A DNA stretch of 64,000 bases from positions 21,636-85,635 of the forward strand of contig JAHIUA010000085.1 of assembly GCA_018817385.1 (NCBI GenBank), given 5' to 3'. Origin of the DNA: Pseudomonadota bacterium (GTDB taxonomy: Bacteria; Desulfobacterota; Desulfobulbia; Desulfobulbales; Desulfocapsaceae). The position numbers and the translations under genes are program-made. Positions 5,905-56,762 of this stretch are shown here, piece after piece. The notes beneath the pieces were generated by a model. It worked only from the letters and a program-made list of their open reading frames with translations. It was not told the DNA's origin and did not search any database. Position 1 is the stretch's first letter. Every line of letters starts with the position of its first letter.

Positions 5905-5949
5905 TACACTGACTTATCAGCAGCTATTTTTTTGACCAGAGAGAACGCC

Positions 5950-7869
5950 ATGGAACATAACATACATTTTTTACCCGATAACGTCCACGTAACCGTTGAA
6001 GATGGAACAAATCTCCTCACAGCGGCTGCCGCCGCCGGTGTTTACATCCACGCCTACTGCGGTGGAGACGGCGTCTGCGGAAAGTGCAAAGTGCAGCTGG
6101 AAAAAGGAGCTGTAGTCTCCGATAATGCCGCCACCCTGAAACAGAGTGAATACGACAAGGGAATCCGCTTGGCCTGTAAGGCAAAAGTCGTCTCTGATAT
6201 CACCATTCGCATCCCGGACACAATCAAGAGCGACGGACAGGCGTTGAAACGGGAACCAAAGACCACCAGGGCCATATCGGCACGCTCTCTGGAAACCCTG
6301 ATCGGGACCTGGGATGTCGACCCACCGGTGGGCAAAATATTTCTCAAGTTGCCCCCACCAACACTTACAGACAACATCTCCGACATGCAGCGTTTGATGC
6401 GCTCTCTCAAAAACGCCATACCGGAAAATCCCGAGCCCACCTACGATCACCCTGAACTGATCCGTGAACTCTCCCTTGCCCTTCGCGAAGCGAACTGGGA
6501 GGTGACGGTCATCCTCCTCCATGGAAAACGAAAGACTGAACCGGATCGAATCATTGCCGTGGAGCCCGGTGACACCACAGACCGTCTCTACGGACTGGCC
6601 GTAGACATCGGGACCACCACCTGTAGCGGAGTATTGATTGATCTGAACAACGGCGAGATCATTGCCGAGGGTTCCGGCTACAACTCTCAGATCGGCTACG
6701 GGGAAGATGTGATCTCCCGCATGATCTATTCCCAGCGCCCCGGCGGCCTCAAGGGCCTGCAGCAGAAAGTTATCTACACCATCAACAATATCATCGAAGA
6801 AGTGTGCAAGAAGGTCATCATCAGCCCCAGTGATATCAGCTATATCATGACCGCCGGAAATACGGTCATGGCCCATCTGCTGCTGGCCATCAACCCCAAA
6901 TTTTTGCGCGAAGCCCCCTATGTCCCCAGCGTCAGCCAGTTTCCTCTGACCAAGGCTGCAGCTCTGGGTATCATGGCCCATCCATCGGTGAGAATGTTTC
7001 TCTATCCCTGTGTCTCCTCTTATGTAGGCGGGGATATCGTGGCTGGAGTCCACGCCTGCCAGATGCATAAGAATGAAAAGATATCACTCTTTATCGACAT
7101 CGGCACCAACGGTGAGATCGTTATCGGCAACCGGGACTGGATGGTCTGCGCCGCCTGTTCCGCCGGACCAGCCTTTGAGGGCGGTGGCATAAAATACGGC
7201 ATGCGGGCCAGCGCGGGGGCCATTGAAAATTTCCAGATCCACCCCGAAACCTTTGACCCCATGATCGTGACCATAGGTCAAACCAAGCCCCGAGGGATAT
7301 GCGGCTCCGGCCTGATCTCCATCGTCTCAGAGCTTCTGGTCGCCCGGGTTATTGACCCTCAAGGCAAATTCAACCGAAACCTCAACCACCCCCGCATCCG
7401 TGAAGGCGAAAATCGCTGGGAGTATGTCCTGGTCTGGGCCAAGGACTCCATGATCGGTGAAGATATTGTCATCAATGAGGTCGATCTCGACAACCTGATT
7501 CGAGCCAAAGGAGCCATGTATGCCGGATACCAGACCATCCTCGAATCCGTGGGTATGACCTTCTCCGATCTTGACCGAGTCATCCTTGCCGGGAACTTCG
7601 GAGCCTACATTGACCTTGAACGGGCCATTACCATCGGTCTGTTGCCGGATATCGACCGAGATCGCTTCTTCTATCTCGGCAATGCCTCCATGCTCGGCTG
7701 CCAGATCAGCCTTACCGATCATCGCCGTTTCCGGGAGAGAGTGGCAGTGCGAACACTGATGACCAACATGGAACTGTCGGAGAACCCCGACTTTATGAAT
7801 CACTACATGGCAGCGCTCTTTCTTCCCCACACGAATATGAACCTCTTTCCTTCGGTAAAATTGAAGTAA
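5950..7869 (+). CDS. reductive activator of corrinoid proteins (RACo/AcsV-like: 2Fe-2S ferredoxin domain + ASKHA ATPase)
   Basis: N-terminal plant-type 2Fe-2S motif (YCGGDGVCGKCKV...ACK) and ASKHA motifs (LAVDIGTTT, DIGTNGEI). The track start at 5932 is TTG. The ATG at 5950 (MEHNIHFLP) is preferred. Confidence 0.8.
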   Translation: MEHNIHFLPDNVHVTVEDGTNLLTAAAAAGVYIHAYCGGDGVCGKCKVQLEKGAVVSDNAATLKQSEYDKGIRLACKAKVVSDITIRIPDTIKSDGQALKREPKTTRAISARSLETLIGTWDVDPPVGKIFLKLPPPTLTDNISDMQRLMRSLKNAIPENPEPTYDHPELIRELSLALREANWEVTVILLHGKRKTEPDRIIAVEPGDTTDRLYGLAVDIGTTTCSGVLIDLNNGEIIAEGSGYNSQIGYGEDVISRMIYSQRPGGLKGLQQKVIYTINNIIEEVCKKVIISPSDISYIMTAGNTVMAHLLLAINPKFLREAPYVPSVSQFPLTKAAALGIMAHPSVRMFLYPCVSSYVGGDIVAGVHACQMHKNEKISLFIDIGTNGEIVIGNRDWMVCAACSAGPAFEGGGIKYGMRASAGAIENFQIHPETFDPMIVTIGQTKPRGICGSGLISIVSELLVARVIDPQGKFNRNLNHPRIREGENRWEYVLVWAKDSMIGEDIVINEVDLDNLIRAKGAMYAGYQTILESVGMTFSDLDRVILAGNFGAYIDLERAITIGLLPDIDRDRFFYLGNASMLGCQISLTDHRRFRERVAVRTLMTNMELSENPDFMNHYMAALFLPHTNMNLFPSVKLK

Positions 7870-17317: not shown

Positions 17318-18301
17318 TTAACGAAGAGATATCTCCGCATCTCGAGCAGTCTCAGCAATATGAGAGACATAAATTTGAACAAAGGCAGGGTCCTCACCCA
17401 GACCTTTGCTCACCGGAATCACCTCAAACCCTTCTTTTTTCAAGACAGAAAGCCAGGAACCTTCTCCAGGACCTGCCATATCATTCATGACATGATCCCC
17501 TGCCACCACCATAAAGGGTTTCAAGAGCACACGATTCACCCCGGCCTGCTGCAACTGGCTGCGGACATCCTCCAGGCCGGGAAAGCCTTCCACGGTACCA
17601 ATGAGTGTCAGGACATCGGGATAGAGCTCACGCATTCGGGCAGCGAATTCCAGGTAGGGTCCTCCTGAAGGAAAATGATCATTACCATGCCCCATGTACA
17701 CCAGGGCAGCCTCTTCTTTCCTCGCCAGCTCAGCATCAGCAATCAAGGCCTTGGCCGCCTGGCGCACGTCTTTGGCGTAGGAATGGGTAGTACCGAACGT
17801 ACCCAGGGCCGGTCTGCCGACCACCAGATGTTGAAAGGGTTTGTGCCTGGCCTTGATAGTCTTGATTGAAACGAGTCCCTCCACATAGGAACAGAGATCC
17901 AGGAATTCTTCCGCCGGGGCAATATGGGTGGACTGGACAATAATTGAGTCAATCCCTTGATCCTGCAGCCCGGCAATGGTGGCCAGAGGCCCCTGGATTT
18001 GAAAAATATCTTCCGGAATCTGCGGATGGAGCTGCCGGTACGCCTGATCAACACTCCGTTCCTGCCAAATTCCACGAATGATATTGGAGGTAAAGGCCAT
18101 CCGCACCGGGGTCTCCGGATAAGCCTTCTCCACGGCCTCGCGAATATTGAGCAGACTCTGCAATGCCGGCTCAACTGTGGTTCCGAACATGGCCAGAACA
18201 ATTCCATTGGCTTGGGCCGTTTTTCGCTCTGCAGCCGCCAGGGGATGAGTGACAACAAAGGTGAGAAAAAGAATCAAGAAAATCAGAGAACTGCGTTTCA
18301 T
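17318..18301 (-). CDS. cbiK: sirohydrochlorin cobaltochelatase CbiK with signal peptide (periplasmic CbiKP-type)
   Basis: MKRSSLIFLILFLTFVVTHPLAAA signal. LAMFGTT, MAFTSNII, GHGNDH and VVAGDHVMNDMAG are CbiK class II chelatase motifs. Confidence 0.85.
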   Translation of the reverse strand: MKRSSLIFLILFLTFVVTHPLAAAERKTAQANGIVLAMFGTTVEPALQSLLNIREAVEKAYPETPVRMAFTSNIIRGIWQERSVDQAYRQLHPQIPEDIFQIQGPLATIAGLQDQGIDSIIVQSTHIAPAEEFLDLCSYVEGLVSIKTIKARHKPFQHLVVGRPALGTFGTTHSYAKDVRQAAKALIADAELARKEEAALVYMGHGNDHFPSGGPYLEFAARMRELYPDVLTLIGTVEGFPGLEDVRSQLQQAGVNRVLLKPFMVVAGDHVMNDMAGPGEGSWLSVLKKEGFEVIPVSKGLGEDPAFVQIYVSHIAETARDAEISLR

Positions 18302-18449
18302 GGGAAGATGCTCCTAGACTTGAGATCCGGAAATAAAACTCCTGGATCAATTACTATTGATCCGGGATATCCCTGTAAATCCCAGAAAGGTTGCTGTCAT
18401 CTACTCTTCCGGAGCAGACAACCATGATTCAGACAGGTCTTCTGACTCC

Positions 18450-18630
18450 CGGATCAATCCATTACCGCGCCTTCCCATCTAACAGGTAGACAGTGACTTT
18501 GGGATACCTTGAAACATCCTGATTCTTCAAGATATCCTCTGTGCGGAAACAGTCCCCGGTTACAGCGGCGGGCCCGTCCCGGAATGACACCGGGTTCCCT
18601 ATTAAGCCTTGTTACAGGCATCTGAAACAG
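18450..18630 (-). promoter_or_regulatory. cobalamin (B12) riboswitch in the cbiK leader
   Basis: The minus strand reads ...GGCTTAATAGGGAACCCGGTGTCATTCCGGGACGGGCCCGCCGCTGTAACCGGGGAC..., then a B12-box-like AGTCACTGTCTACCTGTT (18481-18498 on +), then GATGGGAAGGCGCGG. Boundaries are approximate. Confidence 0.85.
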
Positions 18631-18888
18631 GAATAAAACTACCGCCAACTCTCTGCTGGGTCAATATTTTTTTCCAAATCCTTTCAAAAGGATGGGTGAC
18701 GCAAGATCAAGGGCCATGGCCGGGGAGAGGAAAAAAGAAACCATAAAGACAAAAAGGCAATTTAAAGATGATAAAAATTCTTTGCTTGCGTATGATGGAC
18801 AGACTGGAGCAATAGAGTCCCCAATGATGACCTCGTGTCCTTTCAGAATCAAGCCACCACCCTACCAAAACCTCACGACTTCTCCAAA

Positions 18889-46144: not shown

Positions 46145-46927
46145 ATGAACATTCCCATTGTCATAACTGCATTTGGCACAACCTCCAGAGCCCTGAGCAC
46201 CTATTCTTTTCTCGATACATTGATCCGGAACCGTTTTCCCGAACACGAAGTTTTGTGGAGCTTTTCTTCTCGAGCCATCACCGCAGAAAGAAAAGGCACT
46301 AATGCGTTAGGGCACCCTGCCCCAGAGTTTGTCCTTCAACAACTCAGTGAACAGGGACACAAGTACGCAATACTCCAGTCCGCACACCTGTGGCCTGGTC
46401 ACGAATTTCATAAACTTGTCAAGATAGGACACCGCTGTCCCCTCACCGTTTCCCTGGGTATGCCCCTGCTCAGCTCCCCTCTTGATTATGAAAAACTCTG
46501 TCCCTGCCTGGACAACATTGCCCATGCGCACAAGAACCGAGCCCTGATTATTGCTGGCCATGGAACCAGTCATCCGGCATGGAGCGGATATTTTGCCTTG
46601 GATCATTTTCTCCGTAAACGTTTTGGCAATCATATATTTATGGCCCTGCTCAAGGGCTACCCAACTCCAGCAGAAATGATCCAACAGGTCAAAGATGCCG
46701 GCTTTGACTCTGCCTGTCTACTTCCCTTCATGCTCGTAGCAGGCAGACATTTTGAGCGAGAGTTGACCGGGTCCGGTCCTGATTCATGGCAGTCGCAATT
46801 GTCCAGGGCAGGAATTTCCCTCCAGGCCATAGATCATGGCCTGGGAATGATGGAGGGAGTGGCAGAGATTTTTTGCGATCACATCAGCGAAGCACTGGCT
46901 CATGCCCATCTCTCTGACAGCAGATAA
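46145..46927 (+). CDS. cbiK: sirohydrochlorin cobaltochelatase CbiK (cytoplasmic paralogue)
   Basis: IVITAFGTT, WSFSSRAI, AGHGTSH, LVAGRHF motifs. No signal peptide. Confidence 0.8.
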   Translation: MNIPIVITAFGTTSRALSTYSFLDTLIRNRFPEHEVLWSFSSRAITAERKGTNALGHPAPEFVLQQLSEQGHKYAILQSAHLWPGHEFHKLVKIGHRCPLTVSLGMPLLSSPLDYEKLCPCLDNIAHAHKNRALIIAGHGTSHPAWSGYFALDHFLRKRFGNHIFMALLKGYPTPAEMIQQVKDAGFDSACLLPFMLVAGRHFERELTGSGPDSWQSQLSRAGISLQAIDHGLGMMEGVAEIFCDHISEALAHAHLSDSR

Positions 46928-48096: not shown

Positions 48097-48534
48097 CTAG
48101 CACAACTGGTCCAGATTTTTTATGAAATCTCGTATCTCCAGACAAACTCGTCGATAACAGGCCAACTTAGCTTCCTCACTGCTGGCATCTTTGGCCAGTT
48201 GCGGGGGATCATCAAAGCCGTGATGAATGACTTTCGTGGTCCCTGGAAACAGAGGACAATTCTCATCCGCATGACCGCAGACGGTGATCACCAGATCAAA
48301 ATCCTGGCCCGCCAGCTCATCCACATGTTTTGACCAGTGCTTGCTGATATCCACTCCCGCTTCCTGCATGACCCTGACCGCCATGGGATTCAGGCCATGC
48401 ACCTCTATGCCCGCAGACCAGACATCAATCCGCTCACCATGGAGGTGGCGAGCCCAGCCCTCGGCCATCTGACTGCGACAGGAGTTGCCAGTACAGAGAA
48501 AGAGGATTTTTTTTCGTTTTCCAATCATGAGCAT
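48097..48534 (-). CDS. arsC: arsenate reductase, thioredoxin-coupled LMW-PTPase type
   Basis: LFLCTGNSCRSQMAEG (P-loop Cys) and VITVCGHADENCP (the Cys82/Cys89 equivalents). Confidence 0.9.
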   Translation of the reverse strand: MLMIGKRKKILFLCTGNSCRSQMAEGWARHLHGERIDVWSAGIEVHGLNPMAVRVMQEAGVDISKHWSKHVDELAGQDFDLVITVCGHADENCPLFPGTTKVIHHGFDDPPQLAKDASSEEAKLACYRRVCLEIRDFIKNLDQLC

Positions 48535-48547
48535 CCAATTATTTTTC

Positions 48548-48775
48548 TCAAGAGATGGGAATCGGTACCCCAAGTATCTCGTTCACCGCCCGGCGAACAT
48601 CAGCCAGACATCATTTCCCCTTTGGATTTAAATCCTTGCAGTGACACCTGCCGGCGCGAGAAGAGGATATGATCTCTTCCATGATGGTGGACCTGCCATT
48701 TTTTCTGATATCCTGCTCAATATCTTCGCGGCTGTGGGAAAAGCAATAACAGAGTAATTCTTCTTTTGTCTCCAT
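48548..48775 (-). CDS. candidate selenoprotein: 75-codon Cys-rich BFD/CopZ-zinc-finger-like protein with in-frame TGA (codon 55)
   Basis: Not in the ORF track. AAGGAGAG SD lies 6 nt before the ATG at 48775. Sequence is METKEELLCYCFSHSREDIEQDIRKNGRSTIMEEIISSSRAGRCHCKDLNPKGK-TGA-CLADVRRAVNEILGVPIPIS-stop. The second stop is 14 nt before the arsC start. A hairpin lies downstream of the TGA. Confidence 0.5.
48581..48598 (-). promoter_or_regulatory. SECIS-like hairpin
   Basis: GUUCGCC-GGGC-GGUGAAC, a 7-bp stem including one G-U. It begins 13 nt after the UGA at 48613-48611, and its G-rich tetraloop lies 20-23 nt downstream. Confidence 0.4.
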
Positions 48776-50684: not shown

Positions 50685-50804
50685 TCAGTTGATCATACCA
50701 ATCACAAATAATCCAACAATGACGAAGACAAAGAAAATTCCAACCTTGATACAGATTGAGTGATCTTCTTCCGGTTTCTCATGTCCATGCCCATGTCCGC
50801 TCAT
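50685..50804 (-). CDS. 39-aa His-rich single-TM peptide
   Basis: Not in the track. AAGGAGG SD lies 6 nt before the ATG. MSGHGHGHEKPEEDHSICIKVGIFFVFVIVGLFVIGMIN, followed by the terminator at 50624-50662. Confidence 0.5.
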   Translation of the reverse strand: MSGHGHGHEKPEEDHSICIKVGIFFVFVIVGLFVIGMIN

Positions 50805-52853: not shown

Positions 52854-55800
52854 TCAAGGCAGGGAAAGAAAACGGAACTCCGATCTCACCGTTTTCACTC
52901 TGTTTTCCCAGAGCGGACACTGTTTGCGAATACACTCCCGGTTTTTGGGATACTGGCCACAGCGGAGTATCCCCTGTGCCTCCATGGTCACAGGCAGGAT
53001 CTGGGCTGAAAGTCTGGCTGTTTCAGTGAGGGCAATCCATGTCTCACGCTGGCAGCAGCGGCCGCCACGGTAGTGGGCAATGGCTGCCAGGACCTTTGCG
53101 CTGAAAGCCTGGGCAGTCTGTCGGGATAGGGGAGTCAGGGGGGTGGCCGCCAGGATGGTGGCCACCGCTATCCCGGCACCAACGGCTGCCCCGCAGGCCC
53201 CCCAGAAGCCACAGACCCCGCCGGGGATATCGGCCCCTCGACTGATCCCACTCAAAATACTCTCGGTCTTGAGTGCTCCCCCGCAGTTCCGATAACAGGC
53301 CAGGATGATACCCGGAATCATGGCATGGTGCTCCGGGCCATGCATGGGGATGGCCGGATGACTGCGAATCAGCTCGAGCAAGGTGAGAAGATCTTTCTCC
53401 ATCGTAGTAGTGCAAATCGCTTTAATCACCTCGATTCCGTTTTCCTGGTGACAGCTGTCACAGACAAAATGGTCCTGGCCACAGCAACCGTTGGCTGACT
53501 GGACACGTCCGCAGTAGCTGCAGCACATATCCCGAAAATCGGTGAAGTATTGCAGTTCGCCGCCACAGACCATACAGCCTTCACCTTTTCGTTCTTTCTC
53601 CGGCAGCTCTTCTCCACTGTCACAACACCCTCCCTTTTCAGGTGCACAGCAACTCTGGACTGCACCGATCTCTGCCTGCGGAGCACAACAGGAATTCTCC
53701 ATCACCAAGTTGGTCACTGCCCCTTTGCCATCAAGGACAAAGACAGAGTCATCGAGCAAAGCCACCTCTGCTGCCGGAAGAGACGTACGTCTCCCCTTGA
53801 CCAGAAGGATGCCGGATGCCGTATGCACTGCCCCAAAGGGGCCTCTGTAGACCACGTCCACCTTCCCCTTTGCCTTAGCGGAAAAGGGCGGCCGTTCCGC
53901 CTGATAGGTGAGTGAAAAAAAATCCATACCCTCGACCTGGCGATAGGGAAACCGTTTGAGTAAGCGGATGGAAGTAAACCCTGCCGCCTCCATCATGGCC
54001 ACCAGTTCCTCCTGCTGCATGGCCCCACCCAGACATTCGCCCCGATAGCGGATGTTGTTCCTGATTCCTGGGGGAATAGCCGTGTCAGTGACAATATCTG
54101 AGACCACAACCCTGCCTCCCGGCCTGAGGATACGAAAAATTTCCTGGTAGGTCATCCGCTTGTCAGGACTGAGATTGATTACGCAGTTGGAGATGACCAC
54201 ATCCGCCACCCCATCGTCCAGAGGGATCTGCTCAAGAAATCCTTTACGGAATTCTACATTGGCATAGCCCAGCCGCCCTGCCACCTCTGCTCGGGCCTCG
54301 TTGGCCAGGTGCAGCATTTCATCTGTCATATCAATCCCGTACACCTTACCACCCTGGCCAACCGCAGAAGAGGCCATGAAACACTCGACCCCGGAACCAG
54401 AACCGAGGTCAACCAGGGTCTCTCCCTCTTGCGGGCCACCATCGGTCACCGGGCTGCCGCAGCCGTAGGAACGCTTCCGGGTTTCACCGGGAATAAAATC
54501 CGCCTCTGCCTGGGCAGGAGCAAGGGGATTGATGATATCCTCATTGGCAGCCACTGCTGCCTGGCCATAAAATTCTCGAACCGAATTGTGTCCAAGTCCA
54601 GAAGCCAGAGATATAAGACAGTTGCAGTGGGTCAAGTCCACTGCAGAACTGCTTTCTGCATCAGGACAATCATGGCGGACATCTCCCATGCGCAGGCGGA
54701 TGGCACTCTTTTCCTGACGCCGGTAGCGATTGGCCTGATCGATAATGAGCTGGAGGGCAAGTCGATTATAGAGCTCCACATAGGGGTCATGCCCCACCCA
54801 CTGTCCACTGTGCATGAAACTGTGGTCAATATCGCCACCGCCCACCAGAAACTTGAGTGGATTGAGTTGATAGGCAGGCGAATCAATCAGAGAACTGCGG
54901 CGCAGTTCTTCCAGGACCGGACTCGTCTGCCAGACCTCTGCCAATCCCTGCTCCAGACTGCCGCAGGCACATTCCTCCAGACCAACCAGGGCCGGCGAAG
55001 GATAGATTGTATTATCCGGTCCCACAGCCAGAGATTCCCAACCGGTGTTAGAGAGGTCATAACGGGTGCCCGGGGTAGAAAAGACCTGGCTGCGCAAGGT
55101 CTCGACATTATCGATGCTCAGGCCCAGTTCCTCTGCCCGCCGCCAGGCGGCAAGAAACTGAGGAAAGATGGTATCGCAGTCAATAAACTGCTCCCGGCTC
55201 CCCTTTCCCCGAATAAAGTGATAGAGGAGATGGATACTTGCGGCCCCCACTCCTGCGGCCACCTCCACCAGCTGCGGCAGGTCCTCTATATTTTCCCGAC
55301 TGAGCGCCACCGAAAGGGTGAACGGAATCCCAGCCCCCTGCAGGGCGCGAAGGTTTCCCATGAGTTTCCGGTGGGTTCCTTTCCCCCGCAACCTGTCATG
55401 GGCAGCCTCCATCCCGTCAAGACTCACCTGGAGATGGAGACGGTCTATGCCCTTGAGTTCATCAAGATACCTCTCCAGCAACATACCATTGGTCAGAATG
55501 GCAACATGGACATCCGGGTTGCTCTGCAGCAGCCCGTGCAGGAAAGGAAGAAAATCAGGATAGAGAAAGGGCTCGCCTCCGGTGAAAGAAAAGAGACGAC
55601 ACCCCAGAACCAGGGCCTGATCCACCGTCTCCTGAAGACGTTCAGGTGCGAGACTGCGTGTTTTGGCAGGGGAGGCGGCAAAGAGACAGTGATGACAGCT
55701 CAGATTGCAGGCGTCGGTGAGATGAAACCAGCACTCTTTGAGACGATCCAGGTGCAGCGCCGAGGCCCGTCCCCGATAGGGGCGCATGGGCTCTACCTCC

Positions 55801-56006
55801 AGAGCCGCAACAAGCCGATCCTGGGCATAAAAAGTGTCAGAACCCTGGCAGCCGCTCCTCAGCAAACGGTCACTTGCGGCAGAGACAACGATCCAGTCCG
55901 GAATATCCGCTTGGACGTAGAGCGCCTGTCCTTCCCATTCAAGACGCTGCCAGCCCAGGGTCTCGGCAAGGGTTTTTTCAACTCTATTTTTTTCCATTTC
56001 CATCAA
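52854..56006 (-). CDS. multidomain fusion: radical SAM + degenerate SPASM-like + ArsM-type SAM methyltransferase + vicinal-Cys linker + Cys-rich C-terminal domain (1,050 aa)
   Basis: aa 100-107 CNLSCHHC, FTGGEPF, LTNG, SLDG (rSAM). aa 513-660 SYGCGSP, LVDLGSGSG, GIDMT, ISNCVINLSPDK, GECLGGA (ArsM). aa 773-795 three CC pairs. aa 811-852 CMVCGG/CCSYCG/CDSCH. aa 855-1030 helical Cys-rich domain (HGPEHH, GFWGACGA), DUF5714-like from memory. Confidence 0.85.
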   Translation of the reverse strand: MMEMEKNRVEKTLAETLGWQRLEWEGQALYVQADIPDWIVVSAASDRLLRSGCQGSDTFYAQDRLVAALEVEPMRPYRGRASALHLDRLKECWFHLTDACNLSCHHCLFAASPAKTRSLAPERLQETVDQALVLGCRLFSFTGGEPFLYPDFLPFLHGLLQSNPDVHVAILTNGMLLERYLDELKGIDRLHLQVSLDGMEAAHDRLRGKGTHRKLMGNLRALQGAGIPFTLSVALSRENIEDLPQLVEVAAGVGAASIHLLYHFIRGKGSREQFIDCDTIFPQFLAAWRRAEELGLSIDNVETLRSQVFSTPGTRYDLSNTGWESLAVGPDNTIYPSPALVGLEECACGSLEQGLAEVWQTSPVLEELRRSSLIDSPAYQLNPLKFLVGGGDIDHSFMHSGQWVGHDPYVELYNRLALQLIIDQANRYRRQEKSAIRLRMGDVRHDCPDAESSSAVDLTHCNCLISLASGLGHNSVREFYGQAAVAANEDIINPLAPAQAEADFIPGETRKRSYGCGSPVTDGGPQEGETLVDLGSGSGVECFMASSAVGQGGKVYGIDMTDEMLHLANEARAEVAGRLGYANVEFRKGFLEQIPLDDGVADVVISNCVINLSPDKRMTYQEIFRILRPGGRVVVSDIVTDTAIPPGIRNNIRYRGECLGGAMQQEELVAMMEAAGFTSIRLLKRFPYRQVEGMDFFSLTYQAERPPFSAKAKGKVDVVYRGPFGAVHTASGILLVKGRRTSLPAAEVALLDDSVFVLDGKGAVTNLVMENSCCAPQAEIGAVQSCCAPEKGGCCDSGEELPEKERKGEGCMVCGGELQYFTDFRDMCCSYCGRVQSANGCCGQDHFVCDSCHQENGIEVIKAICTTTMEKDLLTLLELIRSHPAIPMHGPEHHAMIPGIILACYRNCGGALKTESILSGISRGADIPGGVCGFWGACGAAVGAGIAVATILAATPLTPLSRQTAQAFSAKVLAAIAHYRGGRCCQRETWIALTETARLSAQILPVTMEAQGILRCGQYPKNRECIRKQCPLWENRVKTVRSEFRFLSLP

Positions 56007-56138: not shown

Positions 56139-56762
56139 TCACACCACCTTATCAGCAGGTGGTGGAGGCGGAGGCGGAGGCATGGTAGACTGCCCGATGA
56201 CAGCCTGTTTTCCCTGTAAGCGTTCTTCATAGACAGACAGGACCACAAAAGTAGCCAAAGGTTGGGTGAAAAGTGCGGCTACGGCAATGGATCCGCCCAC
56301 GGAGAGAATGACCAGGTAGAGAACCATGAGGATCATCTGATCGGCCAGGGGATCTCTCGTCGCCATTTGCCAGGACCCTTTCACGGCCTCAATCAAACCC
56401 ATCTTCTGATCCGTCATCAAGGGCACAACATAGATGGTGGCAAAGACGAGGAAACCGACGACAAGAAAACCCGGGAGAATAAGGAGGACGAACCCTAAGC
56501 TCACGGCCAGCATGGACAGAAGGCCAAAGACAAAGAGAGGGAGGAAGAGCTGCATCTCGGAAAAGAGATCACCGAGCTTTGGCTCACGCCCCTCACGCAG
56601 GGCCAGAAGCAGGGACTGCATATAGCCGGCGGTCGTGACAGGGAGCAGAATACCGAAACTGAAAACCGATACCACTATTTGAACCAGGGTCAACAGAATA
56701 AGCGGAACGATAAACTGGAGAGTATGTTCCCAGGCAGTCTGCAGATGCATCTTAAAATCCAT
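56139..56762 (-). CDS. polytopic membrane protein with C-terminal poly-proline tail
   Basis: About 5 TM helices. Ends in MPPPPPPPPADKVV. Co-directional with the rSAM-ArsM fusion and 132 nt upstream of it. Start taken at MDFKMHL (GAGGGG SD). Confidence 0.65.
   Translation of the reverse strand: MDFKMHLQTAWEHTLQFIVPLILLTLVQIVVSVFSFGILLPVTTAGYMQSLLLALREGREPKLGDLFSEMQLFLPLFVFGLLSMLAVSLGFVLLILPGFLVVGFLVFATIYVVPLMTDQKMGLIEAVKGSWQMATRDPLADQMILMVLYLVILSVGGSIAVAALFTQPLATFVVLSVYEERLQGKQAVIGQSTMPPPPPPPPADKVV

What the first reader, a model, noticed from the sequence alone, without database searches (positions are those of the whole stretch)
52854..56006. Single 1,050-aa polypeptide fusing a radical-SAM enzyme, a cysteine-less SPASM-like module, an ArsM-type methyltransferase, ArsD-like vicinal cysteines and a Cys-rich C-terminal domain
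Seen in sequence: one uninterrupted minus-strand ORF. aa 92-310 carry CNLSCHHC (CxxxCxxC; nt ~55686-55709), FTGGEPF, LTNG and SLDG, which is a radical-SAM core. aa ~320-400 keep the spacing and Gly/aromatic pattern of a SPASM/twitch module (GPDNTIYPS...GSLEQGLAEVW...VGGGD). However, the auxiliary-cluster cysteines are replaced (YPS instead of YPC, and no CxxCx5Cx3C). aa ~475-705 (nt ~53892-54584) have VREFYG, SYGCGSP, LVDLGSGSG, GIDMT, ISNCVINLSPDK and GECLGGA. These are the SAM motifs of As(III) S-adenosylmethionine methyltransferase, and the three Cys positions fall at 516/608/658. The 608-to-658 spacing of 50 aa matches ArsM as I recall it. aa 773-795 have three CC pairs (SCCAPQ...SCCAPEKGGCC). 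aa 811-852 look like a zinc ribbon, and aa 855-1030 form a helical Cys-rich domain. Established knowledge: the two known C-As bond-forming pathways pair ArsM with a separate radical-SAM protein (ArsS for arsenosugars, ArsL for arsinothricin), and vicinal Cys pairs bind As(III) in ArsD/ArsR. Inference: this fusion may be a self-contained organo-arsenical (or other soft-metalloid) biosynthesis or detoxification enzyme. Supporting context is a co-directional membrane protein 132 nt upstream (56139-56762, possible exporter) and arsC plus a candidate Sec/Cys protein ~4 kb away. I am not aware of this architecture being characterised.
Basis: partly seen in the sequence, partly recalled or inferred. 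Interest (0 to 1): 0.8.

Follow-up and report, generated by a model that had tools for sequence, protein, structure and literature searches.

The report
Radical-SAM / ArsM-type methyltransferase / DUF5714 fusion enzyme
This is a real, widely conserved but uncharacterised 1,050-residue enzyme that joins a radical-SAM domain, an arsenite-methyltransferase-type domain with its three arsenic-binding cysteines intact, and a cysteine-rich domain of unknown fold; it may make carbon-metalloid bonds in one protein, but unlike ordinary arsM genes it is never next to arsenic-resistance genes.

Summary
There is one uninterrupted minus-strand ORF at 52854-56006. It holds a radical-SAM core with CX3CX2C, a SPASM-fold module whose cluster cysteines are all replaced, an ArsM-type methyltransferase, a disordered linker with vicinal Cys pairs, a zinc ribbon and DUF5714. 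Query C516/C608/C658 align with CmArsM C72/C174/C224.

The protein is not a one-off. At least 118 full-length homologues (54-84% identity) exist in Desulfobulbales-type genomes. The same architecture recurs at 30-60% identity in MAGs assigned to Eisenbacteria, Chitinivibrionales, Pirellulaceae and Desulfobacteraceae, with a partial match in Acidobacteriota. Every catalytic motif is kept.

The arsenic interpretation is only partly supported. The methyltransferase groups with ArsM rather than UbiE, but it scores below NCBIfam's cut-off and lacks the fourth ArsM cysteine. In 24 fusion loci plus the window I found no arsR or acr3, whereas 35 of 64 stand-alone arsM-like loci have an arsR-type neighbour. 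The nearby arsC and the upstream membrane gene are not conserved partners.

DUF5714 has no PDB fold match and recurs as a C-terminal partner of other radical-SAM enzymes.

Best guess (about 0.35): a self-contained SAM enzyme acting on a thiolate-bound trivalent metalloid. I found no paper describing it.

The parts
52854..56006 (-). Whole ORF, 1050 aa from the TTG (1049 aa from the ATG at 56003), stop codon included
   Evidence: identical public protein P0001; an AGGAG lies 7 nt before the TTG/ATG
55737..56006 (-). N-terminal domain, aa 1-90. Predicted as three beta strands plus helices. It carries the invariant W18, P35-D36-W37 and Y76-x-G78-R79. Function unknown; the topology is reminiscent of a peptide-recognition (RRE) domain.
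   Evidence: AF2 secondary structure with block-mean pLDDT about 62-91 over aa 11-90. No Pfam or PDB sequence hit even with a family profile.
55077..55733 (-). Radical-SAM core, aa 92-310: C100-x3-C104-x2-C107, FTGGEPF, LTNG, SLDG
   Evidence: Pfam PF04055 at 90.8 bits; cysteines invariant; fold matches SkfB, anSMEcpe, ChlB and SuiB
54807..55076 (-). SPASM-fold module without auxiliary-cluster cysteines, aa 311-400
   Evidence: hhalign against true-SPASM proteins P0196 and P0218 gives Prob 98-98.6%, with template Cys aligned to S/S/Y/N/V/D. No Pfam SPASM hit.
54585..54806 (-). Linker, aa 401-474. It has invariant C447 and C463 and the motif T-H-[C/S]-N-C-[L/V]-I-S. AF2 confidence is low (<50) over 445-475.
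   Evidence: Some stand-alone ArsM homologues carry CxC or CC motifs at the equivalent N-terminal position.
53712..54584 (-). ArsM-type class I SAM methyltransferase plus ArsM-like C-terminal subdomain, aa 475-765: VREFYG, SYGC516GSP, DLGSGSG, GIDMT, ISNC608VINLSPDK, GEC658LGGA
   Evidence: NCBIfam PRK11873 at 224 bits (cut-off 263). PDB 5evj E 3.5e-37 and 4fr0 E 2.1e-34, with C72/C174/C224 aligned. Foldseek top 13 hits are all ArsM or AS3MT.
53592..53711 (-). Disordered Cys-pair linker, aa 766-805 (SCC...SCC...GGCC)
   Evidence: pLDDT below 50 over 768-802. CC773-774 is invariant in the family and nearly so across phyla. It aligns with the N-terminal part of the NCBIfam MbdU model (model positions 5-271); MbdU is listed with a CU motif (PMC13188914).
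53439..53591 (-). Zinc-ribbon-like beta hairpins, aa 806-856 (C811, C814, C829, C832; C842, H846, C849, C852, H853)
   Evidence: Invariant Cys and His. Predicted beta strands with block-mean pLDDT 84-92 in the C-terminal model.
52908..53426 (-). DUF5714, aa 861-1033. A helical bundle with invariant HGPEHH, GGxCGFWGxCGAAxG, RCCQRE and C1016/C1025/C1030.
   Evidence: Pfam PF18978 at 194 bits. AF2 mean pLDDT 85 for the C-terminal model. No PDB fold match; best E 0.93.
56139..56762 (-). Co-directional small membrane protein (207 aa, poly-Pro tail), probably co-transcribed. It is not a conserved partner of the fusion.
   Evidence: Only weak YciC, UPF0259 and BPSS1780 hits. Homologues are upstream only in the closest loci L001-L003, and a UPF0259-type gene sits upstream in L092. 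A terminator-like site after radA lies at 57063-57051.

Best explanation
The ORF encodes a self-contained, multi-domain SAM-utilising enzyme that belongs to a conserved, uncharacterised family.

Shown: it has one radical-SAM [4Fe-4S] site on a SPASM-type scaffold that has lost every auxiliary-cluster cysteine. It has an ArsM-type methyltransferase whose three As(III)-binding cysteines are intact and invariant. It has a flexible linker with vicinal cysteines, and a Zn-ribbon/DUF5714 module rich in invariant Cys and His.

Inferred: a trivalent soft metalloid, with As(III) as the precedent and Sb(III) also possible, is captured on thiolates. The CC pairs may act as a swinging arm that hands the metalloid to the Cys516/608/658 site. 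C447/C463 of the linker may stand in for the missing fourth ArsM cysteine. The metalloid would be methylated by SN2 attack on SAM. The radical-SAM domain would then carry out a second, radical step on the same bound species. That step could add a 5'-deoxyadenosyl or another SAM-derived radical to the metalloid, as ArsS and ArsL do, or it could activate the new methyl group.

DUF5714 probably holds a metal or Fe-S centre that supplies electrons or the substrate. The gene is a constitutive chromosomal gene, not part of an ArsR-controlled resistance operon. Its role is therefore more likely biosynthetic or housekeeping than classical detoxification.
For: ArsM affinity. The best NCBIfam hit is arsenite methyltransferase at 224 bits, followed by arsinothricin ArsM, ArsM-fusion selenoprotein models and, further down, arsenosugar ArsM. 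The PDB best hits are CrArsM and CmArsM, with C72/C174/C224 aligned. The Foldseek top 13 are all ArsM or AS3MT, aligned over 267-302 columns and so including the ArsM C-terminal subdomain.

Conservation. The Cys triad, the radical-SAM triad, C447, C463, CC773/774 and all Zn-ribbon and DUF5714 cysteines are invariant or nearly so from 84% down to about 30% identity and across phyla.

Self-containment. No neighbour is conserved across 19-24 loci.

Precedents. ArsM works with the radical-SAM enzymes ArsS or ArsL in C-As bond formation, and ArsL uses a Cys-rich RCCLKC tail to bind As(III) (bioRxiv 10.1101/2024.02.01.577332). DUF5714 carries an invariant RCCxR motif.

Module behaviour. The NCBIfam MbdU model ('metal-binding double selenoprotein', listed with a CU motif) covers the CC linker, Zn ribbon and DUF5714. 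DUF5714 is a recurrent C-terminal partner of three different radical-SAM types.
Against: No arsR or acr3 occurs in the window or in 24 fusion loci (422 kb), whereas 35 of 64 stand-alone arsM-like loci have an arsR-type neighbour. The methyltransferase scores below the NCBIfam cut-off (224 < 263) and lacks the CmArsM C44 equivalent.

The radical-SAM domain is closest to SPASM peptide maturases (MftC, ScmF, StsB, PqqE). ArsS and ArsL models are not among the 25 listed hits out of 70.

Stand-alone DUF5714 genes (more than 3,700 clusters) sit in heterogeneous contexts unrelated to arsenic. No activity data exist.
Confidence: 0.35

Rival explanations
1. Metallocofactor or Fe-S-linked chemistry. The Cys triad and DUF5714 would hold a metal or cluster-bound sulfur rather than a free metalloid. 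The methyltransferase would methylate that soft ligand, and the radical-SAM domain would then abstract H from the methyl group. This is the NifB, RlmN/Cfr and MiaB paradigm of 'methylate a soft nucleophile, then activate it with 5'-dA radical'. The result would be maturation of a cofactor or a modified cluster.
For: DUF5714 is fused to TrsS-type and SPASM-type radical-SAM enzymes, and also to GGDEF, PLP-enzyme and kinase proteins. That pattern suggests a generic metal, redox or ligand module. In the Thermoanaerobaculia locus L023 the fusion lacks DUF5714 and is followed by an overlapping CobW/G3E metallochaperone GTPase gene. The gene sits in a core-genome, syntenic position among housekeeping genes. 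The paradigm itself is established radical-SAM knowledge, recalled rather than tested here.
Against: No client protein or cofactor pathway gene is conserved nearby. The CobW neighbour is a single case. All three ArsM As(III) ligands are kept exactly, with the ArsM spacing of 92 and 50 residues, which is most simply read as an ArsM-like substrate.
Confidence: 0.2
2. Peptide- or protein-modifying enzyme (RiPP-like or self-modifying). The radical-SAM part descends from SPASM peptide maturases and keeps an N-terminal recognition domain. The methyltransferase would methylate a Cys or another residue of a peptide, or of the enzyme's own Cys-rich linker.
For: The best radical-SAM matches are peptide maturases: MftC, ScmF, StsB and PqqE by sequence, and SkfB, SuiB, ChlB and anSMEcpe by fold. 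The nearest DUF5714-bearing relatives, P0196 and P0218, are SPASM RiPP-maturase-like. The N-terminal three-strand-plus-helices domain has RRE-like topology.
Against: No conserved small ORF or precursor gene lies next to the fusion in 19-24 loci. All SPASM auxiliary-cluster cysteines are lost. The N-terminal domain has no detectable similarity to PqqD/RRE or to any PDB chain. The ArsM triad is conserved, which a peptide methyltransferase would not need.
Confidence: 0.15
3. Ordinary arsenic detoxification. The protein would be an ArsM that carries accessory domains, is induced by arsenite, and works with the neighbouring membrane protein as exporter and with arsC.
For: The ArsM-type domain has the catalytic Cys triad. 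A thioredoxin-type arsC lies at 48097-48573, scoring 149.9 bits against TIGR02691 (cut-off 174.3).
Against: There are 0 arsR and 0 acr3 in the fusion loci, against 35/64 and 5-7/64 around stand-alone arsM-like genes. The arsC is separated by 5'-nucleotidase, RNase H and APH-kinase genes and is absent from four more distant fusion loci annotated with Pfam. The membrane protein is conserved only in the closest relatives and is not a known transporter. Detoxification would not need strictly conserved radical-SAM and DUF5714 modules.
Confidence: 0.1

Closest known systems
ArsM / AS3MT, As(III) S-adenosylmethionine methyltransferase (CmArsM 4fr0/4fsd, CrArsM 5evj, human AS3MT 8xt7)
   Same: Class I SAM fold plus the ArsM C-terminal subdomain. 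The motifs YGCG, DLGSGSG, ISNCVINLS and GECLGGA are present. Cysteines align with C72/C174/C224 at the same 92 and 50 residue spacing. These are the top sequence and fold hits.
   Different: It is embedded in a 1050-aa fusion. The C44-equivalent cysteine is deleted. It scores below the NCBIfam cut-off (224 < 263). It is not linked to arsR or acr3.
ArsM + ArsS (arsenosugar) and ArsM + ArsL (arsinothricin) two-protein pathways
   Same: An ArsM-type methyltransferase is combined with a CX3CX2C radical-SAM enzyme. A Cys-rich segment could bind As(III), as the RCCLKC tail of ArsL does.
   Different: Here the two are one polypeptide. The radical-SAM domain is of the SPASM-maturase lineage, and ArsS and ArsL models are not among the 25 listed NCBIfam hits. 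There is no ars-operon context.
SPASM/twitch radical-SAM maturases (anSMEcpe, ChlB, SkfB, SuiB, MftC, PqqE)
   Same: Radical-SAM barrel plus C-terminal SPASM fold. Foldseek TM-score normalised to the target is 0.71-0.74 for anSMEcpe and ChlB, and the profile alignment runs through the SPASM region.
   Different: All SPASM positions where the two templates (P0196, P0218) carry cluster cysteines are non-Cys here (S, S, Y, N, V, D). No auxiliary clusters are therefore expected, and there is no partner peptide gene.
NCBIfam NF045648 MbdU 'metal-binding double selenoprotein' and stand-alone Zn-ribbon + DUF5714 proteins (PF18978)
   Same: The segment with vicinal Cys (CU in MbdU), the Zn ribbon and DUF5714 aligns to model positions 5-271. 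The invariant motifs HGPEHH, CGFxGxCG, RCCxR and C...N.EC....CP are shared.
   Different: It scores 128-132 bits against a cut-off of 600. It lacks the C-terminal roughly 200 residues of MbdU and has Cys instead of Sec. Here the module is appended to two enzymes.
Radical-SAM-DUF5714 fusions without a methyltransferase (TrsS-type P0137; SPASM-type P0196 and P0218)
   Same: The order is the same: radical SAM, then Zn ribbon and DUF5714. P0196 and P0218 align with this protein's radical-SAM and SPASM region at Prob 98-98.6%.
   Different: They keep the SPASM cysteines (TIGR04085 hit) and have no ArsM-type domain inserted.

Membership tests
Radical SAM superfamily (PF04055) | CX3CX2C motif for the SAM-binding [4Fe-4S] cluster | tested here: met
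   C100-x3-C104-x2-C107 is invariant in 118 homologues and across phyla.
Radical SAM superfamily (PF04055) | Profile match above the curated cut-off and a partial TIM-barrel fold | tested here: met
   PF04055 scores 90.8 bits against a cut-off of 29.5. Foldseek hits SkfB, anSMEcpe, BlsE, ChlB and SuiB.
SPASM/twitch subfamily | C-terminal SPASM fold following the barrel | tested here: met
   hhalign aligns through the SPASM region of P0196 and P0218 at Prob 98-98.6%. anSMEcpe and ChlB align over about 375-385 columns.
SPASM/twitch subfamily | Cysteines that ligate one or two auxiliary [4Fe-4S] clusters (Cx9-15Gx4C...Cx2Cx5Cx3C...C) | tested here: not met
   Template cysteines align with S, S, Y, N, V and D. 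There is no PF13186 or TIGR04085 hit.
ArsM / AS3MT arsenite methyltransferase | Class I SAM-binding fold and motifs | tested here: met
   Methyltransf_31 scores 104.5 bits. DLGSGSG and GIDMT are invariant. The Foldseek top hits are ArsM structures.
ArsM / AS3MT arsenite methyltransferase | Three As(III)-binding cysteines equivalent to CmArsM C72, C174 and C224 | tested here: met
   The phmmer alignment to 4kw7/4fr0 places query C516, C608 and C658 on them. They are invariant across phyla.
ArsM / AS3MT arsenite methyltransferase | Fourth conserved cysteine (CmArsM C44), needed for the first methylation of As(III) | tested here: not met
   The query has a deletion where CrArsM and stand-alone bacterial homologues carry the Cys or CC. 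Invariant C447 and C463 upstream might substitute, but this is untested.
ArsM / AS3MT arsenite methyltransferase | Score at or above the curated family cut-off (NCBIfam PRK11873, methyl_ArsM, AsSugarArsM) | tested here: not met
   224 against 263, 170 against 500, and 105 against 400.
ArsM / AS3MT arsenite methyltransferase | Genomic association with ars genes (arsR, acr3/arsB). This is common but not obligatory. | tested here: not met
   0 of 24 fusion loci plus the window, against 35/64 for arsR and 5-7/64 for acr3 around stand-alone homologues.
ArsM / AS3MT arsenite methyltransferase | SAM-dependent methylation of As(III) or MAs(III) | not testable with these tools
   Needs enzyme assays or in vivo speciation.
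ArsS (TIGR04167) / ArsL (NF040542, RCCLKC-tail) C-As bond-forming radical-SAM enzymes | Sequence membership of the radical-SAM domain | tested here: not met
   Neither model is among the 25 listed hits out of 70 for aa 1-470. All listed hits score 52 bits or more and are SPASM, MoaA or HpnH-type families.
ArsS (TIGR04167) / ArsL (NF040542, RCCLKC-tail) C-As bond-forming radical-SAM enzymes | Cys-rich tail that binds As(III) (RCCLKC in ArsL) | tested here: inconclusive
   There is no RCCLKC. The CC pairs at 773-795 and the invariant RCCQRE in DUF5714 are only reminiscent.
DUF5714 (PF18978) | Profile match above the cut-off over the full model length | tested here: met
   194 bits against a cut-off of 26.2, covering model positions 1-173 of 173.
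MbdU metal-binding double selenoprotein (NF045648) | Score at or above 600 bits, full 468-residue architecture, two Sec residues | tested here: not met
   128-132 bits, covering model positions 5-271 only, with Cys instead of Sec.
ArsD metallochaperone | Homology to ArsD (thioredoxin-like fold with C12-C13, C112-C113 and C119-C120) | tested here: not met
   No ArsD family was hit in Pfam or NCBIfam scans of the whole protein or of the C-terminal part. The vicinal cysteines are an analogy only.

The most novel reading that the evidence does not exclude
A single polypeptide would build an organo-metalloid, such as a methylated and adenosylated or otherwise alkylated arsenic or antimony compound. 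It would combine SN2 methyl transfer and radical SAM chemistry on one thiolate-bound atom, using a previously unknown Cys-rich fold (DUF5714) as a built-in metal, electron or substrate module. Because the gene is a constitutive core gene of Desulfobulbales (with a homologue in a Ca. Electrothrix MAG), with patchy spread to other anaerobic phyla, the product would be a physiological metabolite rather than a detoxification product. That would be a third, convergent route to C-As bonds.
Probability: 0.2. Interest if true: 0.85.

Novelty: new variant of a known kind. Interest (0 to 1): 0.62.

Why it matters
Only two enzymatic routes are known that form carbon-arsenic bonds other than methyl-arsenic: ArsS for arsenosugars and ArsL for arsinothricin. 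Both use a separate ArsM. This family fuses an ArsM-type domain to a radical-SAM enzyme of a different lineage, and to a Cys-rich domain whose fold matches nothing in the PDB. It is abundant in sulfur-cycling anaerobes from sediments and groundwater, where arsenic speciation matters for water quality.

If the family makes organo-metalloids, it would reveal unrecognised arsenic or antimony biochemistry in anoxic environments and a compact biocatalyst. If it does not, it shows that an intact 'arsenic-binding' Cys triad does not reliably predict arsenic methylation. That matters because arsM-like sequences are used as functional markers in metagenomics.

The work also gives DUF5714 its first functional lead: it is a recurrent partner of radical-SAM enzymes. 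DUF5714 has more than 3,700 clusters at the 90% identity level.

Tried and rejected
(1) Conserved neighbours. I clustered ORFs from 21 fusion loci; the fusion ORF itself was recovered in 19. Only synteny among close relatives appeared (RNase H, EI24, RadA, APH, and a third family seen in L007/L011/L016). No functional partner emerged. Pfam on 10 immediate neighbours of distant loci gave unrelated families: CobW, TPR, MatE and Pyr_redox_2.

(2) Upstream membrane protein as exporter. Homologues lie upstream only in L001-L003, with a UPF0259-type gene upstream in L092. Only weak YciC, UPF0259 and BPSS1780 hits were found. Rejected as a conserved partner.

(3) Function of DUF5714 from its fold. 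The model is confident (pLDDT 85) but has no PDB match; best E 0.93.

(4) Function of DUF5714 from the context of stand-alone genes. Three loci gave heterogeneous neighbours (PMT_2, HAD, amidohydrolase), and one look-up found nothing.

(5) A selenocysteine variant as a pointer to the key Cys. The apparently truncated homologue P0084, followed by a DUF5714 ORF, is a frameshift and not a TGA-Sec site.

(6) N-terminal domain as an RRE. There was no Pfam or PDB sequence hit even with a family profile at E up to 10. Only the topology is suggestive.

(7) Literature. 'DUF5714' returned 0 papers. Searches combining radical SAM, ArsM, fusion and DUF2284 found nothing on this architecture.

(8) Promoter and terminator scan. 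It was uninformative apart from a terminator-like site after radA.

(9) Rfam and tRNA scans. Nothing was found near the gene.

(10) Assembly chimera or pseudogene. Rejected, because identical or near-identical full-length genes occur on independent contigs from JGI and ENA samples, and there are at least 118 full-length homologues.

Full report
OBSERVATION

The window has one uninterrupted minus-strand ORF at 52854-56006, 1050 codons from a TTG. An AGGAG lies 7 nt upstream. The public gene call starts one codon later at the ATG and gives 1049 aa; it is found 100% identical on independent JGI and ENA contigs.

Pfam finds Radical_SAM at 96-248 (90.8 bits), Methyltransf_31 at 527-676 (104.5 bits) and DUF5714 at 861-1033 (194 bits).

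DOMAIN BY DOMAIN

(i) aa 1-90. AlphaFold2 predicts three beta strands followed by helices. Block-mean pLDDT is about 62-91 over aa 11-90. The family keeps W18, P35-D36-W37 and Y76-x-G-R. Neither Pfam nor a profile search of the PDB finds any relative.

(ii) aa 92-310. This is a canonical radical-SAM core. C100/C104/C107 are invariant.

(iii) aa 311-400.
- A profile-profile alignment of the family against two relatives that do carry a true SPASM domain (P0196 and P0218, TIGR04085 hit) runs through the SPASM region with probability 98-98.6%.
- It puts their cluster cysteines opposite S, S, Y, N, V and D of this protein.
- Foldseek aligns about 375-385 columns with anSMEcpe and ChlB, with TM-score 0.71-0.74 normalised to the target.
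- The 'cysteine-less SPASM' reading is therefore correct.

(iv) aa 401-474. This linker is modelled with low confidence. It contains C447 and C463, which are invariant even across phyla, in a T-H-[C/S]-N-C-[L/V]-I-S motif.

(v) aa 475-765.
- The best NCBIfam model is arsenite methyltransferase PRK11873 (224 bits, cut-off 263). Next come arsinothricin ArsM, ArsM-fusion selenoprotein models and, further down, arsenosugar ArsM. Pfam UbiE scores 55.6 bits.
- The best PDB sequence hits are CrArsM (E 3.5e-37) and CmArsM. In the printed alignment, query C516, C608 and C658 fall on CmArsM C72, C174 and C224.
- The 13 best fold matches are all ArsM or AS3MT, and they cover the ArsM C-terminal subdomain.
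- The fourth ArsM cysteine (C44) has no counterpart. The query has a deletion where CrArsM and many stand-alone bacterial homologues have Cys or CC.

(vi) aa 766-805. This linker is disordered and carries CC pairs. The first pair is invariant, the second is kept in 81-86% of members and the third in about 46%.

(vii) aa 806-856. Beta hairpins with invariant CxxC...CxxC and C...H..C..CH.

(viii) DUF5714. An eight-helix bundle in a C-terminal model of mean pLDDT 85. It has invariant HGPEHH, GGxCGFWGxCGAAxG and RCCQRE motifs and three C-terminal cysteines. It has no fold match in the PDB; best E 0.93.

DISTRIBUTION

- At least 118 full-length homologues of 54-84% identity were returned, from MAGs named Desulfocapsa, Desulfocapsaceae, Desulfurivibrionaceae, Desulfoarculaceae and Thermodesulfobacteriota.
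- A scan of species-representative genomes found the full architecture at 30-61% identity in two cultured strains, Hydrosulfovibrio ferrireducens CB1MN and Desulfogranum japonicum DSM 18378.
- It also found it in MAGs assigned to Ca. Electrothrix, Desulfobacteraceae, Eisenbacteria, Chitinivibrionales and Pirellulaceae.
- An Acidobacteriota MAG (L021) gave a match covering only aa 3-762, truncated near the contig end.
- At 50% clustering, at least 20 representative clusters keep CX3CX2C, YGCG, SNC and GEC at the ArsM spacing of 92 and 50 residues; most of them also keep HGPEHH.
- All catalytic cysteines survive this divergence.

CONTEXT

In the window and its closest relatives the gene lies between radA plus a small membrane gene on one side and 5'-nucleotidase, RNase H and APH-kinase genes on the other. 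More distant Desulfobulbales loci keep parts of this synteny. Beyond that the neighbours differ. The rest of the window is housekeeping: AspRS, HisRS, HypF, CCA-adding enzyme, RACo and CbiK.

Clustering ORFs from 21 fusion loci found no partner conserved beyond close relatives. The upstream membrane protein has homologues only in the nearest loci and gives only weak YciC/UPF0259-type hits. The arsC at 48097-48573 is thioredoxin-type (TIGR02691, 149.9 bits against a cut-off of 174.3). It is 4 kb away behind unrelated genes, and it is absent from four more distant fusion loci annotated with Pfam.

As a control I analysed the 64 stand-alone arsM-like loci returned by the same scan.
- 35 have a neighbouring ArsR-family regulator (HTH_5 and HTH_20 confirmed); a single-sequence tblastn finds 24.
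- 5-7 have an Acr3-type (SBF family) permease.
- The same queries find nothing in the window plus 24 fusion loci, 422 kb in all.
The fusion is therefore not an ars-operon gene.

THE DUF5714 MODULE

A full-library search with the C-terminal 291 residues found 981 relatives. Most are stand-alone proteins of about 230-250 aa made of the Zn ribbon plus DUF5714. These occur in Clostridia, Thermoplasmata, Myxococcales and other groups, with more than 3,700 clusters at 90% identity. Their contexts are heterogeneous.

Other architectures include:
- a TrsS-type radical-SAM enzyme plus DUF5714 (NF045646, 543 bits, above its cut-off);
- SPASM peptide-maturase-type radical-SAM enzymes plus DUF5714;
- occasional fusions to GGDEF, to a PLP enzyme, and to a kinase with a solute-binding domain.

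NCBIfam's only related model is MbdU, 'metal-binding double selenoprotein'. A 2026 review (PMC13188914) lists it with a CU motif and predicts it by bioinformatics only. In one Thermoanaerobaculia genome the fusion ends after the CC motif, and an overlapping gene for a CobW/G3E GTPase follows.

DUF5714 thus looks like a portable Cys/His-rich metal or Fe-S module that often accompanies radical-SAM enzymes. The SPASM-type DUF5714 fusions align with this protein's radical-SAM and SPASM region. This suggests that the present family arose from such a fusion by inserting an ArsM-type domain and losing the auxiliary clusters. That is an inference.

MECHANISM

Shown: two SAM-using active sites with intact catalytic residues, an ArsM-type tri-thiolate site, mobile vicinal cysteines and a Cys-rich accessory module, all under strong purifying conservation in a stand-alone gene.

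Inferred, in order:
1. A trivalent metalloid is bound by thiolates.
2. It is methylated by SN2 attack, as in ArsM.
3. It is then subjected to a radical step by the adjacent radical-SAM domain.

The precedents are ArsS (5'-deoxyadenosyl transfer) and ArsL (3-amino-3-carboxypropyl transfer, with a Cys-rich RCCLKC tail that binds As(III); bioRxiv 10.1101/2024.02.01.577332). I give this 0.35.

Rivals:
- a metallocofactor or cluster-ligand methylation-then-radical mechanism of the NifB, RlmN or MiaB kind (0.2);
- a peptide- or self-modifying enzyme (0.15);
- plain arsenic detoxification (0.1).

NOVELTY

Every individual domain type is known, and ArsM working with a radical-SAM enzyme is an established pairing. 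The fusion itself is not described in the searchable literature. Nor is the maturase-lineage radical-SAM part with a cluster-less SPASM, or the DUF5714 module. Databases call the protein only 'DUF5714 domain-containing' or 'methyltransferase domain-containing'.

I class it as a new variant of a known kind. Its arsenic interpretation is plausible for the chemistry but not supported by context.

Noticed in passing
window 54618-54644 (aa 455-463, linker) compared with 54168-54197 (aa 604-613): The invariant linker motif L-T-H-[C/S]-N-C-[L/V]-I-S-L resembles the methyltransferase active-site motif V-I-S-N-C-V-I-N-L-S that carries the As-binding C608. In several distant homologues it reads SNC[VI] exactly. 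It could be a remnant duplication or a pseudo-active-site or hand-off element.
   Followed up: partly
L023 7668-10199 and 10193-11344: In a Thermoanaerobaculia MAG the fusion (843 aa) stops right after the CC motif and lacks the Zn ribbon and DUF5714. An overlapping downstream gene encodes a CobW/G3E-family GTPase with a GCFCC motif, a metallochaperone type. This may be a functional replacement of DUF5714.
   Followed up: partly
window 50685-50804 (-): A conserved 37-41 aa ORF with a His/Glu-rich N-terminus and one transmembrane helix (MSGHGHGHEKPEEDHSICIKVGIFFVFVIVGLFVIGMIN). It lies upstream of the RNase H gene in four Desulfobulbales-type loci (L001, L003, L004, L005). It is an unannotated small membrane protein.
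   Followed up: partly
window 18415-18640 (-) and 17318-18301 (-): A cobalamin riboswitch (Rfam RF00174, 103.5 bits) lies directly upstream of a CbiK-type cobalt chelatase gene. A second CbiK-family gene lies at 46145-46927 (+), and a RACo corrinoid-activation gene at 5932-7869 (+).
   Followed up: partly
window 48097-48573 (-): A thioredoxin-type arsC (CTGNSCRS and VCGHADENCP motifs; TIGR02691 at 149.9 bits, just below the cut-off of 174.3). It stands alone, without arsR or acr3 nearby.
   Followed up: yes
window 56139-56762 (-): The small membrane protein upstream of the fusion ends in a run of nine prolines (PPPPPPPPP). It has only weak YciC, UPF0259 and BPSS1780 similarity.
   Followed up: partly
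L092 5401-6111: A marine-metagenome homologue appears split into an 848-aa gene plus a 181-aa DUF5714 gene. The junction looks like a frameshift in the assembly, not a selenocysteine codon.
   Followed up: yes
proteins P0286, P0182, P0332 (stand-alone DUF5714, about 235 aa): Some public records name stand-alone DUF5714 proteins 'SAM-dependent methyltransferase' although they contain no methyltransferase domain. This is probably annotation carried over from fusions like this one.
   Followed up: no
L001 1-773, about 10 kb from the fusion on the source contig and just beyond the window end: A NifB-like gene (Radical_SAM plus the Nitro_FeMo-Co domain) and a DsrE-family gene lie upstream on the same contig. 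No link to the fusion was examined.
   Followed up: no
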